Shown: in pieces, positions 13,026 through 16,005 of the stretch
Numbering within the stretch: position 1 is the first letter of the stretch
Layout: each line of letters starts with the position of its first letter
Assembly: GCA_963790345.1 (NCBI GenBank)
Contig: CAWBOD010000012.1
Coordinates: forward strand, 10,118 to 74,117
Direction: 5' to 3'
Length of the DNA stretch: 64,000 nucleotides
DNA from: an uncultured Acidimicrobiia bacterium
GTDB lineage: Bacteria; Actinomycetota; Acidimicrobiia; Spongiisociales; ZC4RG35
The notes under the pieces: generated by a model
What the model was told of the DNA's origin: nothing
The model's database searches: none
The model's input: only the letters and a program-made list of their open reading frames with translations
Translations under genes and position numbers: made by a program

Positions 13026-16005
13026 ATGGCCACAGTGCAACAGGCCGAAACCGAGCCTCGGACCGGGCAAGTCCGCTTCGATGGCTTCATCTCCTACAGC
13101 CACACCGCCGACGAATTGCTTGCCCCCCGTCTGCAGGCAGCCCTCCAGACCTTCGCCAAGCCGTGGTGGAAACGGCGGGCGTTGCGGGTTTTCCGCGACC
13201 AGTCGTCACTTTCGGCCAACCCGCATCTGTGGTCGTCGATCACCGCCGCCCTCGATGCTTCCGACTGGTTCATCCTCCTCACCTCCCCGGAGGCGGCGGC
13301 CTCTACGTGGGTCGATCGGGAGGTCGCTTACTGGCGTGAGCACAAGGACCCCGAGAGGATTCTGCCGGTCCTCACCGCCGGCACCCTCACTTGGGACGAG
13401 GCCTCGGGTCGGCTCGATCCCCAACTCGTCGGTGCCCCGGTCGTTGCTCGACGCTTTTTCGGGCGAGCCCCGCTGGGTGGATCTGCGGTGGCCGGAGGAG
13501 GAAACCCAGCTCGATCTCCGCAACGGCCGCTTCCGCGACGTGGTGGCCGACATCGCCTCGTCGCTGCGCGGCATCCCCAAGGACGACCTCGAATCCGAGG
13601 AGGTCCGCCAGCACCGCCGTACCCGCCGCACGGCCTGGGGAGCGGGGATCGCCCTGGCGGTTCTCGCGGTCGCCGCCATCACCGGTGCGGTCATCGCGAT
13701 TGATCAGCGGGAGCAGGCCGAAGCCCAAAGGACATTTGCCGAAGCGGAAACGGCCCGGGCTGAGGAGGAGACCGTGCGGGCGGAGTCGGCCGAATCGCTG
13801 GCCCGTTCCCGGGAGCTGGCCGCCTCGGCAATCAACCTGCTGGATGACAATCCCGAATTGAGCATCCTCCTCGGGCTGGAGGCGATCGAGTCGACCCCGT
13901 CGGGTGCTGAGCAGCCGGTCGAAGCGATCAACGCCCTCCGCGAAGCCACCCATGCCAGCCGTCTGCGTAGCCGGGAGGTCGCCTCTCCATCGGGGGGTTT
14001 CGTGGCCCTCGATCTGTCTCCGGACGGGACCCGGCTCGCCACGGTATCCCAGGTAGACGCCAAGGTCACCGTGACCGATGTCGCCACCGGTCGGGAGATC
14101 TCCTCCTATACCGACTCGACCGTGGACCATCTCGTTTCCCTCTCCTTCTCCGTCGACGGTGAAGTGCTCGCGGTGGGGGTGGTGGACTCCGCCCGGCAGA
14201 CCTTCCACCCGGGGATGCCGCCCCGGCCGGGTTCGGAGATCCCCGACGACCTGCCACCCCGGGTCATCCTCTTGTCGGTCGAGTCCGGGGAGGTGCTGCG
14301 GACCATCGACTATCCCTCCTGTGTCGAGGCGGTACCGCTTCCAAGATTCTCCCCCGACGGAGCGTGGCTGGCAGTGGCGGGTCTTGCCGGCCCCGATTGT
14401 CGGGCGGATCAATGGGCGGTCGAATTGCTCGACGCCGTTACCTTCGAATCGGTGCACCGCTGGGAGACGACCGCCGACGCGGCGCTGACATGGAGCGCTG
14501 ACGGATCGCAGTTCTCGGTCGCCAGCGACGCCTCCTCAATGTCTGGCACCATCGTCTTCGAAGTCGCCACCCGGGAACAAGTCCTGCAGTACCCCGCTAA
14601 TAGAGGGATTCTTAGCCCGGATGGACAACTCCTGGTAGTAGATGCAGGATTTGGTCTCGGCGGCCTCGATGTGATCGAGGTGGCGACGGGGACCCGAACC
14701 GACATCCTCACCGGCTTTGATCTCTTAGTGTCAAACAGGGCCTTCACTCCCGACAGCTCCCGGCTGATTGTTGGGATAGCGGGGCATGAGGTGCTGGTCT
14801 TTGACCTGGAGTCGGGCAAGCTCGTTCATCGGCTGAGCCCTACCGGCATTCCGCTCTCGTTCGATTGCCTCGCTCAGTGCGAAACCCTGCTGCACTCGAA
14901 CGGCGATGGTGAGGTGCTCACCTGGGATCTGTCGACCACAGCTGGAGGTGAGTTCAACTCGGTCGATTCCGGCTATTTCGTAAACGCCAACTCTCTCGCC
15001 GCCGCCGGAGACACCGGTGTCTTTTTGGGTTTCTCCACTCTTCGCTTCCACCCCGATGTGGTGCCTTTTGACCGCCCTTCCGGCCAGATCAGCACAGACC
15101 GCCGTGCCACCGAGACGAACACCCCCCTACCTCTTCCCGATGGACGCATCGTGCTCCTCGAGGTGTCCGAAACCACACCCGAGTTTGGCCCGGTGGTGGC
15201 CTGGGACCCCGCCAGCGACAGCGTTGAGGAGGTGGCCGGGTGCTGGACGACCCTGGAGGCGGTCGAACGGAGTGGCTTCGGCTCTGAGCCGATCCCGTGC
15301 GCCGATCGCGAAGGCGACTACTTCTTGATGGATGGAGCACTCCTGAGCCCCGACGAGTCGAGCCTGCTGCTTACCGCTGTTGGAGAGGTGAAGGTCTTCG
15401 ATGCGCGCACCCTGGTGGAACAGACCGTGCCGGCCCTACCGGCAGGCCATAGGACCGTCCTGGCCTACGGCGGGTCCTGGCTCCTGAGCAGTGACGGACA
15501 AGTTGCGAGGGTCGTCGACCTCTCTGACGGTCGGGTGGTGGCGACCCTGCCGACCGGATCCTCCAACGCCTGGTCAGACGTATCGACCAGCGGAGATTTG
15601 GTGGCAATCTTCGAGTGGAACCCCGCAGAGCTAACGGTCTACGACACTGGCACCTGGCAGCCGATCACGTCCTTTGCTCCTGGCTCCAGTCGCGGCATCT
15701 CATTTTCCCCCGATGGCTCCAAGATCCTGACCGCCCAAAACGACGGCTACGTCCGCATCTGGGACACCCACGCCGGCAATGAACTCTTTCGGATTCCGCT
15801 ACCCGCGCCCTCCGGCGGCGTGTGGCTCGACGAGACCCACATCGTCATCGGTTCCGCCACCGGCCTCTGGACGACGATCACCCTTGACCTCGAAGAACTG
15901 AAGGACCTGGCGGTTTCCCGGCTGACGCGGGGCTTCACCGCCGAAGAATGCGAGACCTACCGCATCGACCCATGTCCCGATCTCGAAACGATCGCGAGCA
16001 GATAG
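13026..16005 (+). pseudogene. TIR domain - single TM helix - coiled-coil - WD40/TolB-like beta-propeller protein, one apparent frameshift in the C4 run at 13419-13422
   Basis: The ATG lies 2 nt after the upstream stop. The TIR_2-type N-terminus reads FDGFISYSHTADELLAPRLQAALQ...ALRVFRDQSSL...SDWFILLTSPEAAASTWVDREVAYW. The TM helix is AWGAGIALAVLAVAAITGAVIAI (~13633-13704). A charged helix AEAQRTFAEAETARAEEETVRAESAESLARS follows. There are then at least 8 blade-like repeats: LSPDGTRLATVS, FSVDGEVLAVG, FSPDGAWLAVAG, WSADGSQFSVAS, LSPDGQLLVV, FTPDSSRLIVG, FSPDGSKILTAQNDGYVRIWD. Confidence 0.85.

What the first reader, a model, noticed from the sequence alone, without database searches (positions are those of the whole stretch)
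13026..16005. Toll-like-receptor-like topology in a bacterium: cytoplasmic N-terminal TIR, one TM helix, extracytoplasmic coiled coil and beta-propeller(s)
**Seen in sequence**
- A ~190-aa TIR_2-type domain (FISYSH..., SDWFILLTSPEAAASTWVDREVAYW) is followed by a positively charged stretch (RQHRRTRRT).
- Next come one clear hydrophobic helix (AWGAGIALAVLAVAAITGAVIAI) and an Ala/Glu/Arg-rich helix.
- About 750 aa follow, containing at least 8 SPDG/WD-like blades and ending in a canonical FSPDGSKILTAQNDGYVRIWD blade.

**Inference**
- The positive-inside rule places the TIR in the cytoplasm and the propeller outside. That is a repeat-based ectodomain coupled through the membrane to a TIR domain.
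- Most characterised bacterial TIR defence proteins are soluble, so a transmembrane sensor version is worth study.
Basis: partly seen in the sequence, partly recalled or inferred. Interest (0 to 1): 0.65.

Follow-up and report, generated by a model that had tools for sequence, protein, structure and literature searches.

The report
Transmembrane TIR receptor with outside propellers
The gene encodes a single-pass membrane protein from a large, undescribed actinobacterial family. It most likely has an enzyme-type TIR domain inside the cell and a disulfide-stapled double beta-propeller outside, which resembles a Toll-like receptor in layout but not in ancestry. In this assembly the gene is broken by one extra base, probably a sequencing error.

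Summary
One extra C at 13419-13422 splits the gene into two frames. Read through, it gives 992 aa:
- a TIR_2 domain with the catalytic-type Glu (E99)
- a near-invariant Arg-rich juxtamembrane segment
- one transmembrane helix (aa 205-227)
- a charged helical stalk and a helical linker
- two WD40 propellers (about 14 blades) and a C-terminal cap

An N-in/C-out topology rests on four lines of evidence:
- The positive-inside charge bias.
- A cysteine pattern seen in 103 of 103 homologues: no Cys before the membrane helix, and 6 or 8 after it. Three pairs are universal, and the optional pairs always appear together.
- An AlphaFold2 model in which the hydrophobic helix is isolated rather than buried.
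- The same membrane helix-stalk-propeller module fused to DNA-binding, kinase and nSTAND1 modules, which must be cytoplasmic.

The family has at least 542 loci, mostly in Acidimicrobiia but also in Mycobacterium, Nonomuraea and Myxococcota. It forms tandem arrays of 2-4 paralogues with a constant TIR (74-100% identity) and a variable ectodomain (about 31%). It often sits beside a gene encoding SARP, cNMP-binding, TPR-S, Rossmann-like and cyclase domains. I found no published description. Function remains inferred. Related strains lack the extra base, and other genes in the window are also frameshifted, which points to assembly error.

The parts
13026..16005 (+). TIR-TM-double-propeller receptor gene. 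It encodes 992 aa once one C of the run at 13419-13422 is skipped. The stop codon is at 16003-16005.
13419..13422 (+). Frameshift site: a CCCC run with one base too many relative to all relatives.
   Evidence: DNA alignment with L001 twice, L006 and L013. (contigs of four runs all leave out 1 base at 13421-13424).
13077..13572 (+). TIR domain (aa 18-182), including the catalytic-type Glu E99 in the motif SPEAAASTWVDREVAYW.
   Evidence: Pfam TIR_2 scores 37.5 bits. E99 aligns with the Glu of L6 TIR 'SKWCLMELA' and is at least 90% conserved. Mean pairwise identity is 74%.
13573..13638 (+). Juxtamembrane segment (aa 183-204), GIPKDDLESEEVRQHRRTRRTAW. It is the most conserved part of the protein.
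   Evidence: Mean pairwise identity is 85%. K185, L188 and R197 are invariant.
13639..13707 (+). Single transmembrane helix (aa 205-227).
   Evidence: Kyte-Doolittle 19-residue mean is 2.59, the only peak. Apparent insertion free energy is -1.66 kcal/mol. Sequence identity is 40% but hydrophobicity is kept. In the AF2 model it is an isolated helix with low pLDDT.
13708..13836 (+). Charged Ala/Glu/Arg/Gln-rich helical stalk (aa 228-270). Its length varies across the family.
   Evidence: AF2 helix 223-270. 30 of 43 residues are A/E/R/Q and 5 of 43 are hydrophobic. The distance from QHRR to the linker ranges from 34 to 111 aa.
13837..13962 (+). Helical linker (aa 271-312). The LARSRELAASAINLLDDNPELSILLGLEAIE motif spans the end of the stalk and this linker.
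   Evidence: AF2 helices 276-310. Conserved motif.
13963..14946 (+). Beta-propeller A (aa 313-640), with Cys pairs C432-C458 and C614-C618.
   Evidence: Mean pairwise identity is 32%.
14947..15882 (+). Beta-propeller B (aa 641-952), with Cys pair C739-C758 and the canonical last WD40 blade.
   Evidence: Mean pairwise identity is 31%.
15883..16002 (+). C-terminal helical cap (aa 953-992), LTRGFTAEECETYRIDPCP, with Cys pair C975-C983.
   Evidence: C975 and C983 are invariant in 110 of 110 sequences. The same cap occurs in the nSTAND1-fused relatives.
10161..13023 (+). Partner gene, broken here by at least 3 frameshifts. It encodes SARP (wHTH + BTAD), cNMP-binding, TPR-S, Rossmann-like and class III cyclase-like domains. 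Its stop codon lies 2 nt before the TIR ATG, and a GAAGG Shine-Dalgarno-like motif sits at 13014-13018.
   Evidence: tblastn against the intact 951-aa orthologue finds pieces in three frames. Domains. Junction sequence.
10059..10076 (+). Conserved non-coding element CCGTTAGA(A/G)GTT(C/G)GTAAG, about 85-100 nt upstream of the partner gene's GTG start. It may be an operator or promoter.
   Evidence: It is the only conserved block in the upstream alignment of four loci. Coordinates.
6844..8224 (+). Nearby alpha/beta-hydrolase and class III nucleotide cyclase ORFs. They are a possible source of the cNMP read by the partner.
   Evidence: Pfam Guanylate_cyc scores 72.5 bits for 7571-8224. Cyclase genes also lie upstream of the cassette in L001/L002 and L005.

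Best explanation
**What it is.** The gene encodes a type II (N-in, C-out) single-pass membrane receptor.
- Cytoplasmic side: an enzyme-type TIR domain and a highly conserved basic juxtamembrane helix.
- Extracytoplasmic side: a rigid charged stalk, a helical linker and two WD40 beta-propellers (roughly seven blades each) held by three or four disulfides and closed by a small helical cap.

**The family.** It belongs to a large, uncharacterised family of Actinomycetota, mainly Acidimicrobiia. The cytoplasmic module is held constant while the ectodomain diversifies, often in tandem arrays of 2-4 paralogues.

**Proposed mechanism (inferred).**
1. A ligand at the cell surface binds the propellers. 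Candidates are a phage or competitor protein, or an envelope-derived molecule.
2. Binding clusters or re-orients the receptors through the stalk and the membrane helix.
3. This lets the TIR domains assemble into their active oligomer, which cleaves or cyclises NAD+ in the cytoplasm.
4. The output is either NAD+ depletion or, more likely given the conserved neighbour, a nucleotide signal. The adjacent SARP/cNMP-binding/TPR-S/Rossmann-like/cyclase protein would read it and convert it into cNMP and transcription.

**State in this window.** The one-base frameshift is most likely an assembly error, so the organism probably has an intact gene.

**Shown versus inferred.** Shown: the domain architecture, the family, the conservation pattern, the cysteine pattern and the gene neighbourhood. 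Inferred: the topology (strongly), enzymatic activity, ligand-induced activation and coupling to the partner.
For: **Architecture**
- Pfam TIR_2 and WD40 score above their thresholds.
- The AF2 model has mean pLDDT 90.5. It shows a TIR alpha/beta fold, an isolated helix at 191-215, a long helix at 223-270 and about 53 strands.
- Foldseek matches tandem double propellers: 2ymu, Utp21 and Aip1, the last being two seven-bladed propellers. E-values reach 1e-29.

**Catalytic-type TIR**
- E99 aligns with the Glu in the 'SKWCLMELA' motif of flax L6 TIR. I know that Glu as the catalytic residue of L6.
- E99 is conserved in at least 90% of 110 homologues.

**Topology**
- There is a single hydrophobic peak in all 110 homologues. 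The flanks average N 4.2 K/R and 1.7 D/E, against C 1.9 K/R and 3.2 D/E.
- The apparent insertion free energy is -1.66 kcal/mol, against at least +9.7 elsewhere.
- 0 Cys lie before the helix and exactly 6 (68 proteins) or 8 (35 proteins) after it, in 103 of 103 homologues.
- Three Cys pairs are present in 107-110 of 110 sequences. Optional Cys appear only as pairs: 614+618 in 22 of 22, and 368+393 in 3 of 3.
- Exported proteins of aerobic Actinobacteria show an even-Cys bias and use disulfide bonding (PMC2823432).
- The same Arg-rich segment, membrane helix, stalk, propeller and cap follow BTAD-nSTAND1, Pkinase-GerE-nSTAND1 and wHTH-BTAD-Pkinase-nSTAND1 modules. Those ecto parts again carry 6 or 8 Cys.

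**Receptor-like evolution**
- Mean pairwise identity is TIR 74%, juxtamembrane 85%, and propellers 31-32%.
- Tandem paralogues within one genome are 84-100% identical in the cytoplasmic part in three of the four genomes (67% in L003). Their ectodomains are 30-51% identical in most pairs, 83% in L001.
- 17 of 77 loci hold 2-4 copies.

**Partner**
- It lies within 6 kb in 12 of 34 loci that have at least 4 kb of flank on both sides. It occurs in several orientations and in a full and a short form.
- Its model (pLDDT 93) shows TPR, a Rossmann-like domain and a class III cyclase fold. The two metal-binding Asp are conserved.

**Frameshift as error**
- Relatives lack the extra base.
- At least four other genes in the window are split in the same way.
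Against: - There are no experimental data, and no dedicated topology predictor was available.
- I could not read model coordinates, so Cys-Cys distances are untested.
- WD40 propellers are classically cytoplasmic. Distant members (Nonomuraea, Pseudonocardiaceae) have canonical WD40 repeats and only one Cys pair.
- About two thirds of well-flanked loci lack the partner, so it is not obligatory.
- PADLOC gives only a weak ThsB-like hit of 18.9 bits.
- The window's neighbours are ordinary metabolic and regulatory genes rather than a defence island.
- The partner's cyclase has Thr where canonical class III cyclases have the ribose-orienting Asn. This comes from comparing the consensus with the canonical motif as I remember it. 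It may therefore be a poor enzyme or a pseudo-enzyme.
- The Rossmann-like domain matched nothing in Pfam or in PDB sequences.
- The frameshifts could be real, in which case this particular copy is dead.
Confidence: 0.72

Rival explanations
1. The receptor architecture is as described, but the TIR is a non-catalytic scaffold or the system is ordinary signalling rather than defence. In this reading it is an environmental or envelope sensor. Its TIR and juxtamembrane module recruits the SARP/cNMP partner or another protein to regulate transcription, and no NAD+ is cleaved.
For: - The juxtamembrane and TIR surfaces are extremely conserved (85% and 74%), as expected for a protein-protein interface shared by all paralogues.
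- The partner carries a DNA-binding SARP module.
- The window's neighbourhood holds a histidine kinase, a cyclase and metabolic genes.
- There is no strong PADLOC hit.
Against: - The catalytic-type Glu and the SxxAAxSxWVxxE motif are conserved in at least 90% of members.
- From my own knowledge of the field, all bacterial TIR domains studied so far are NAD+-processing enzymes.
- Tandem arrays with hypervariable sensors are more typical of conflict systems.
- The closest relative's locus sits next to an integrase fragment, a RES-Xre toxin-antitoxin pair and HTH/DUF6036 genes.
Confidence: 0.2
2. The whole protein is cytoplasmic. The hydrophobic segment would be a peripheral anchor, an oligomerisation helix or a buried helix, and the propellers would sense intracellular ligands as in STAND/NLR-like TIR-WD40 proteins.
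For: - WD40 sensor modules with a similar helical linker and C-terminal cap occur in soluble bacterial STAND proteins (my recollection, not tested here).
- The helix is Ala/Gly-rich. 30% of homologues score slightly above 0 kcal/mol on the simple insertion scale.
Against: - A 19-23-residue hydrophobic stretch is the only one in every member, and a conserved Arg cluster always sits on the N side.
- AF2 leaves it as an isolated helix with low confidence.
- The strict pattern of 0 Cys before and an even number of paired Cys after holds in 103 of 103 homologues. That would be unexplained in a reducing cytoplasm.
Confidence: 0.05
3. In this organism the cassette is a decaying pseudogene pair. The frameshifts in the TIR gene (1) and in the partner (at least 3) are real mutations, so nothing functional is encoded here.
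For: - Both genes of the cassette are broken.
- I could not find the original reads. The best public runs share at most 28% of the 31-mers, so they come from related strains only.
Against: - Several unrelated genes in the same 64 kb are split in the same way: a molybdopterin oxidoreductase, an aldehyde dehydrogenase, an arginase and a DAO-family oxidoreductase.
- The TIR shift lies in a homopolymer run.
- There are no in-frame stops or other lesions. The repaired protein is 88-90% identical to intact orthologues over its full length, with no gap at the frameshift site.
Confidence: 0.12

Closest known systems
Animal Toll-like and IL-1 receptors
   Same: Both are single-pass membrane proteins with a repeat-built, disulfide-containing ectodomain and a cytoplasmic TIR domain next to the membrane. 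The variable ectodomain with a constant TIR, and the multigene families, are also shared.
   Different: - The orientation is reversed. This protein is type II, with an N-terminal TIR and no signal peptide. TLRs are type I, with a C-terminal TIR.
- The ectodomain is a double WD40 propeller, not LRR or Ig.
- The TIR keeps the catalytic-type Glu and belongs to Pfam TIR_2, the mainly bacterial model.
- The resemblance is convergent, not orthologous.
Thoeris ThsB and other soluble bacterial TIR defence proteins (TIR-STING, TIR-SAVED, SPARTA TIR-APAZ)
   Same: The TIR domain is of the same broad type. ThsB_TIR scores 24.6 bits against a cut-off of 21.2, and PADLOC ThsB scores 18.9 bits. The catalytic Glu is conserved. 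A nucleotide signal read by a partner with a Rossmann-like domain would parallel ThsB to ThsA.
   Different: - This protein is membrane-spanning and has an approximately 765-aa extracytoplasmic sensor.
- No ThsA, SIR2, Macro, STING, SAVED or Argonaute partner is present.
- The neighbour is instead a SARP/cNMP-binding/TPR-S/cyclase protein.
Bacterial and eukaryotic STAND (NLR/Apaf-1-like) proteins of the TIR-NTPase-WD40 type
   Same: Both have an N-terminal TIR effector and C-terminal tandem WD40 propellers as the sensor. Apaf-1 is among the Foldseek hits. The same ecto-module is also fused to nSTAND1 NTPases.
   Different: There is no NTPase domain in this protein. A membrane helix and a stalk stand where the NTPase would be. 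Sensing is placed outside the cell, and oligomerisation cannot be nucleotide-driven.
Type II actinobacterial receptor Ser/Thr kinases (PknB; PknD with its extracellular beta-propeller) and ToxR/CadC-type membrane-bound transcription factors (own knowledge)
   Same: The topology is the same: an N-terminal cytoplasmic signalling domain, one membrane helix and a C-terminal extracytoplasmic sensor. PknD also uses a beta-propeller as its sensor. Relatives of this ecto-module are in fact fused to kinase and wHTH/BTAD modules.
   Different: The cytoplasmic output is a TIR domain rather than a kinase or a DNA-binding domain. The propeller is a WD40-type double propeller, not a six-bladed NHL propeller.
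Pycsar/Pucsar cNMP-activated TIR effectors (bioRxiv 10.64898/2026.08.12.744502, abstract seen)
   Same: Both are loci in which class III-type cyclases, a cNMP-binding domain and a TIR domain co-occur.
   Different: Here the cNMP-binding domain is on the SARP partner, not on the TIR protein. The TIR protein has its own large sensor, and the direction of signalling is unknown.

Membership tests
TIR domain (Pfam TIR_2, PF13676) | The sequence matches the family model above the curated threshold. | tested here: met
   37.5 bits against a cut-off of 28, over aa 21-120. All full-length homologues carry PF13676.
TIR domain (Pfam TIR_2, PF13676) | A flavodoxin-like alternating beta/alpha fold. | tested here: met
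   The AF2 model gives E18-23, H32-42, E55-57, H68-78, E79-86, H94-106 and E112-116 at pLDDT mostly above 90. No separate fold search of the TIR domain alone was run.
Catalytic (NADase-type) TIR domains | A conserved catalytic glutamate in the helix after beta-C (W-x-x-x-E). | tested here: met
   E99 aligns with the Glu of L6 TIR 'SKWCLMELA' and is at least 90% conserved.
Catalytic (NADase-type) TIR domains | NAD+ cleavage or cyclisation activity. | not testable with these tools
   This needs a biochemical assay.
WD40 beta-propeller | Matches to the WD40 repeat models and a propeller fold. | tested here: met
   WD40 scores 32.5 against 27 and ANAPC4_WD40 scores 43.8 against 22.9. Foldseek matches tandem WD40 propellers with E down to 4e-29 over about 700 aligned columns.
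Toll-like receptor family | A leucine-rich-repeat ectodomain. | tested here: not met
   There is no LRR hit. The ectodomain is WD40.
Toll-like receptor family | Type I orientation: signal peptide, N-terminal ectodomain and C-terminal TIR. | tested here: not met
   The TIR is N-terminal and the single hydrophobic segment lies at aa 205-227.
Thoeris | A ThsB-type TIR protein encoded next to ThsA (SIR2 or Macro/TM plus SLOG). | tested here: not met
   The match to ThsB models is only marginal. No ThsA-like gene appears in the window or in five related loci.
STAND/NLR-like TIR-NTPase-WD40 | A central STAND NTPase domain (NB-ARC, NACHT or nSTAND). | tested here: not met
   There is no NTPase hit in the 992-aa protein. 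nSTAND1 occurs only in other proteins that share the ecto-module.
Single-pass type II membrane receptor (topological class) | One membrane helix, positive-inside charge bias, and signs of export in the C-terminal domain. | tested here: met
   Hydrophobicity and charge. Cys parity and pairing. Module swapping with obligately cytoplasmic domains. Experimental topology is not testable here.

The most novel reading that the evidence does not exclude
Actinomycetota possess a germline-encoded repertoire of cell-surface pattern-recognition receptors. Hypervariable, disulfide-stapled double propellers would detect extracellular ligands such as phage particles, competitor proteins or envelope fragments before anything enters the cell. 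They would activate a constant cytoplasmic TIR enzyme. The TIR's nucleotide product would be read by the Rossmann-like domain of the adjacent protein, which would switch on that protein's cyclase. The resulting cNMP would then drive the protein's own SARP DNA-binding module. That would be a complete outside-in TIR-to-cNMP-to-transcription pathway. The same ecto-module also feeds membrane-spanning nSTAND1, kinase and SARP proteins, which would make it a general extracellular sensor cassette.
Probability: 0.2. Interest if true: 0.9.

Novelty: new variant of a known kind. Interest (0 to 1): 0.68.

Why it matters
To my knowledge, all characterised bacterial TIR systems, and nearly all known anti-phage sensors, detect events inside the cell. 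This family would place the sensor outside the cell and the TIR enzyme inside. It has at least 542 loci and members in culturable Mycolicibacterium, Mycobacterium, Nonomuraea and Vitiosangium.

- **Extracellular sensing.** It would show that bacteria can couple extracellular recognition to TIR signalling. That is the logic of Toll-like receptors, reached independently.
- **Evolutionary signature.** The constant-effector, variable-sensor pattern and the tandem arrays give it the look of an immune receptor repertoire.
- **Testable link.** The conserved SARP/cNMP/cyclase neighbour offers a testable connection between TIR products, cyclic nucleotides and transcription.
- **Membrane-spanning STAND NTPases.** The same ecto-module on nSTAND1, kinase and SARP proteins suggests a whole class of membrane-spanning STAND NTPases. 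I did not find these in the papers I read.

Tried and rejected
- **Original reads.** I looked for them to settle the frameshift. The best public runs hold at most 28% of the 31-mers, so only related strains could be laid on the region.
- **Rossmann-like domain of the partner.** A profile search against PDB sequences found nothing at E up to 10. Pfam gave only noise. Foldseek on the whole partner model was dominated by the cyclase domain. A DprA/SLOG-like reading rests only on the GSLAxGxDIxxAE motif as I remember it, and remains untested.
- **Defence-system libraries.** PADLOC gave only weak ThsB and PDC-S66 hits, so I do not file the gene under Thoeris or any named system.
- **Literature.** Six successful full-text searches and five papers searched by keyword turned up no description of a bacterial TIR-TM-propeller receptor, or of membrane-spanning nSTAND1 proteins.
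- **SARP-type direct repeats upstream of the cassette.** I found one weak 27-nt repeat pair and did not pursue it.
- **Programmed frameshifting.** I rejected this. All relatives encode the protein in one frame, and the window is full of similar shifts.
- **Cys-Cys distances.** I could not measure them because model coordinates are not exposed.

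
Full report
**1. What is in the sequence**

Two overlapping + strand ORFs cover the interval. ORF 13026..13703 (frame 0) begins with a TIR-like sequence. ORF 13081..16005 (frame +1) holds everything else. The sensible reading switches frame at GATCCCCAAC (13416-13425).

Skipping one C of the run at 13419-13422 gives a 992-aa protein. 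It aligns with no gap at the frameshift site to more than 100 full-length proteins of 950-1050 aa, at 35-90% identity. Four intact homologous genes have one base fewer at exactly this place. So do all contigs from four independent soil and rhizosphere runs that cover it.

The partner gene just upstream is broken by at least three further shifts. Unrelated genes elsewhere in the window are split in the same manner: a molybdopterin oxidoreductase, an aldehyde dehydrogenase, an arginase and a DAO-family oxidoreductase. The simplest reading is an indel-rich assembly, not a decayed locus. I could not find the original reads, so a true pseudogene is not excluded.

**2. Anatomy**

Pfam scores TIR_2 at 37.5 bits (cut-off 28) over aa 21-120. 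WD40-type propeller models match from aa 315 to 930.

An AlphaFold2 model built on 110 homologues has mean pLDDT 90.5. It shows:
- a TIR alpha/beta domain (aa 18-182)
- a helix at 191-215 that runs into the hydrophobic segment and has low confidence, as expected for a lone membrane helix
- a long helix at 223-270
- a helical linker at 276-310
- 53 beta-strands between aa 313 and 952
- three short C-terminal helices

Foldseek's best hits are tandem double propellers aligned over about 700 columns. They include 2ymu, Utp21, Pwp2, Aip1 ('two seven-bladed beta-propeller domains') and Apaf-1. So there are two propellers and about 14 blades.

The post-membrane helix is 70% Ala/Glu/Arg/Gln and has only 5 hydrophobic residues in 43. 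It looks like a charged stalk rather than a classical coiled coil. Its length varies widely in the family, with 34-111 residues between QHRR and the linker.

**3. The TIR looks catalytic**

The motif SPEAAASTWVDREVAYW aligns with SSGYADSKWCLMELAEIV of flax L6 TIR. This places E99 on the Glu of that motif, which I know as the catalytic residue of L6. E99 is conserved in at least 90% of 110 homologues.

**4. Topology**

*Hydrophobicity and charge.* Residues about 205-227 are the only hydrophobic stretch. The Kyte-Doolittle 19-residue mean is 2.59, and the next best is 1.6. On the Hessa insertion scale (values from memory), the best 19-mer scores -1.66 kcal/mol, against at least +9.7 anywhere else. 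All 110 full-length homologues have the same single peak at the same place, although the sequence there is only 40% identical. The 15 residues before it carry on average 4.2 Lys/Arg and 1.7 Asp/Glu. The 15 after it carry 1.9 and 3.2.

*Cysteines.* In 103 of 103 homologues that carry the QHRR landmark there is no Cys N-terminal of the helix, and exactly 6 (68 proteins) or 8 (35 proteins) C-terminal of it. Three pairs are present in 107-110 of 110 sequences: 432-458, 739-758 and 975-983. The optional cysteines appear only together: 614+618 in 22 of 22, and 368+393 in 3 of 3. Five of the 26 invariant columns of the whole alignment are these cysteines. Exported proteins of aerobic Actinobacteria are known for an even-number Cys bias and enzymatic disulfide formation (PMC2823432).

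*Module swapping.* A full HMMER scan with the ectodomain found proteins in which the same unit follows other N-terminal modules. The unit is an Arg cluster, a hydrophobic helix, a charged stalk, the LARSRELAA linker, a double propeller with the same Cys spacing, and the LTRxFTxxECxxYxIDPCP cap. The N-terminal modules are BTAD-nSTAND1, Pkinase-GerE-nSTAND1 and wHTH-BTAD-Pkinase-nSTAND1. DNA-binding, kinase and NTPase domains must be cytoplasmic, which fixes the propellers on the other side. In those proteins the cytoplasmic parts hold 0-5 Cys of either parity. The ecto parts again hold 6 or 8.

Together these make an N-in/C-out type II topology very likely. It has not been shown experimentally, and I could not measure Cys-Cys distances in the model.

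**5. The family**

Full-length matches are mostly Acidimicrobiia MAGs.

An HMM of the TIR, juxtamembrane and membrane-helix module hits all 77 fetched loci at E 1e-41 to 1e-121, or 1e-70 and better wherever the module is complete. All proteins with the complete module have the hydrophobic peak, at about aa 200-211 where the N-terminus is intact. These include Mycolicibacterium pulveris, Mycobacterium neumannii, two Nonomuraea species, Pseudonocardiaceae, Solirubrobacterales, Gaiellales and the myxobacterium Vitiosangium. All members examined have TIR_2, a membrane helix and WD40 propellers, except a Microthrixaceae protein whose ectodomain matches nothing.

Mean pairwise identity by region:

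| Region | Identity |
|---|---|
| TIR | 74% |
| Juxtamembrane segment | 85% |
| Membrane helix | 40% |
| Propeller A | 32% |
| Propeller B | 31% |

Seventeen of 77 loci hold two to four tandem copies. Within one genome the cytoplasmic parts are 84-100% identical in three of the four genomes compared (67% in L003). The ectodomains are 30-51% identical in most pairs, and 83% in L001. A constant effector with a diversifying sensor is the pattern of a receptor repertoire.

**6. The neighbour**

In the window the receptor ATG lies 2 nt after the stop of a 10161-13023 gene, with a GAAGG motif 7 nt upstream. The intact orthologue (951 aa) has these domains:
- an OmpR-type wHTH plus BTAD, matching EmbR and AfsR at E 1e-43 and 1e-33
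- a cNMP-binding domain
- TPR-S/MAP3K_TRAF_bd repeats
- an unassigned domain
- a weak Guanylate_cyc match

A model of a short form (pLDDT 93) resolves TPR helices, a six-stranded Rossmann-like alpha/beta domain and a class III cyclase fold. The cyclase fold reaches TM about 0.75-0.8 to Cya2, CyaB and Rv1900c. Both metal-binding Asp are conserved. The Rossmann-like domain matches nothing by sequence.

The partner lies within 6 kb in 12 of 34 loci that have at least 4 kb of flank on both sides, and in 23 of 77 overall. It occurs as the full form or as a short form without SARP and cNMP-binding, in several orientations, and as one partner per array. Separate class III cyclase genes lie just upstream in the window (7571-8224) and in two related MAGs.

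The association is frequent but not obligatory. Which way the signal flows is inference.

**7. Mechanism proposed**

I propose that ligand binding to the outside propellers clusters the receptors. This would allow the TIR domains to form the oligomer that NADase-type TIRs need, and NAD+ would be cleaved or cyclised in the cytoplasm.

Many variable paralogues share one constant TIR/juxtamembrane module and one partner. I therefore favour a relay in which a TIR product or the TIR surface engages the partner, and the partner's cyclase and cNMP-binding SARP turn it into transcription. Simple NAD+ depletion with growth arrest is the alternative output.

Rivals, with the probability I give each:
- a scaffold, non-catalytic role in ordinary signalling (0.2)
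- a wholly cytoplasmic protein (0.05)
- a dead copy in this organism (0.12)

**8. Comparison with what is known**

It works like a Toll-like receptor in layout but fails the family's defining features. It has no LRR and the orientation is reversed. It is not Thoeris (no ThsA, marginal ThsB scores). It is not a STAND protein (no NTPase). It is not a Pycsar-type effector, because the cNMP-binding domain is on the neighbour.

Topologically it matches type II actinobacterial receptor kinases such as PknD, and ToxR-like regulators (own knowledge). Databases label members only 'TIR domain-containing protein' or 'WD40 repeat protein'. Full-text searches and five relevant papers gave no description of it.

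**9. Verdict**

I rate it a new variant of a known kind: a TIR effector proteins, here as a membrane-spanning receptor with an extracytoplasmic sensor. Interest is 0.68. The architecture and family-level evidence are strong. Function is unproven.

Noticed in passing
Proteins P0248, P0258, P0310, P0321, P0328 and P0334: nSTAND1 NTPases carry N-terminal SARP (wHTH/BTAD), Ser/Thr kinase and/or LuxR-type HTH domains. These are followed by an Arg cluster, a strong hydrophobic helix and the same stalk, double-propeller and cap ectodomain with 6 or 8 Cys. They look like membrane-spanning STAND proteins with an outside sensor. The papers I read do not describe them.
   Followed up: partly
window 16732-19043, 36511-37891 and 39743-42803 (also 10161-13023): Several unrelated genes are split between frames. 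The Molybdopterin domain has profile positions 1-116 in one ORF and 168-352 in the next. Aldedh is cut at position 380 of 461. Arginase has 2-34 in one ORF and 44-197 in the next. DAO has only positions 132-353. The assembly appears rich in indel errors.
   Followed up: partly
window 10059-10076: The element CCGTTAGA(A/G)GTT(C/G)GTAAG lies about 85-100 nt upstream of the partner gene's GTG start. It is the only conserved block in the upstream regions of four loci, and may be an operator or promoter of the cassette.
   Followed up: no
L001 9633-9998 and L001 12937-13395 (-): In the closest MAG, a 121-aa ORF lies between the two receptor paralogues. It is a fusion of the N- and C-terminal ends of the partner gene. 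A 152-aa antisense ORF is a truncated TIR copy, 69% identical to the window's TIR. Both look like scars of duplication and recombination of the partner-plus-receptor cassette. The two paralogues there have 100% identical cytoplasmic parts and 83% identical ectodomains, which may reflect gene conversion or recent duplication.
   Followed up: partly
window 6844-9388: An alpha/beta-hydrolase ORF and a class III cyclase ORF (Guanylate_cyc, 72.5 bits) may form one gene of the hydrolase-cyclase type. A histidine kinase follows. All lie directly upstream of the cassette. Cyclase genes, one fused to a STAND NTPase-HTH-TPR protein, also precede the cassette in L001/L002 and L005.
   Followed up: partly
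L001 14972-22542: Downstream of the closest relative's cassette lie HTH_3 plus DUF6036 genes, a phage-integrase fragment and a Xre_MbcA_ParS_C/RES toxin-antitoxin pair. This suggests a mobile or defence-island setting in that genome, unlike the metabolic surroundings in the window.
   Followed up: no
window 42494-43642: An ORF has an AbiEi_4 antitoxin-like N-terminal domain (26.2 bits against a cut-off of 25). It may be part of an AbiE-type toxin-antitoxin or abortive-infection pair.
   Followed up: no
Partner protein middle domain (P0227 aa 215-390; window about 11950-12500): This is a confidently modelled six-stranded Rossmann-like domain with an invariant GSLAxGxDIxxAE...LxVVLPF motif. It matches nothing in Pfam or in PDB sequences. 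The motif recalls DprA/SLOG-type nucleotide-binding domains (from memory only).
   Followed up: partly
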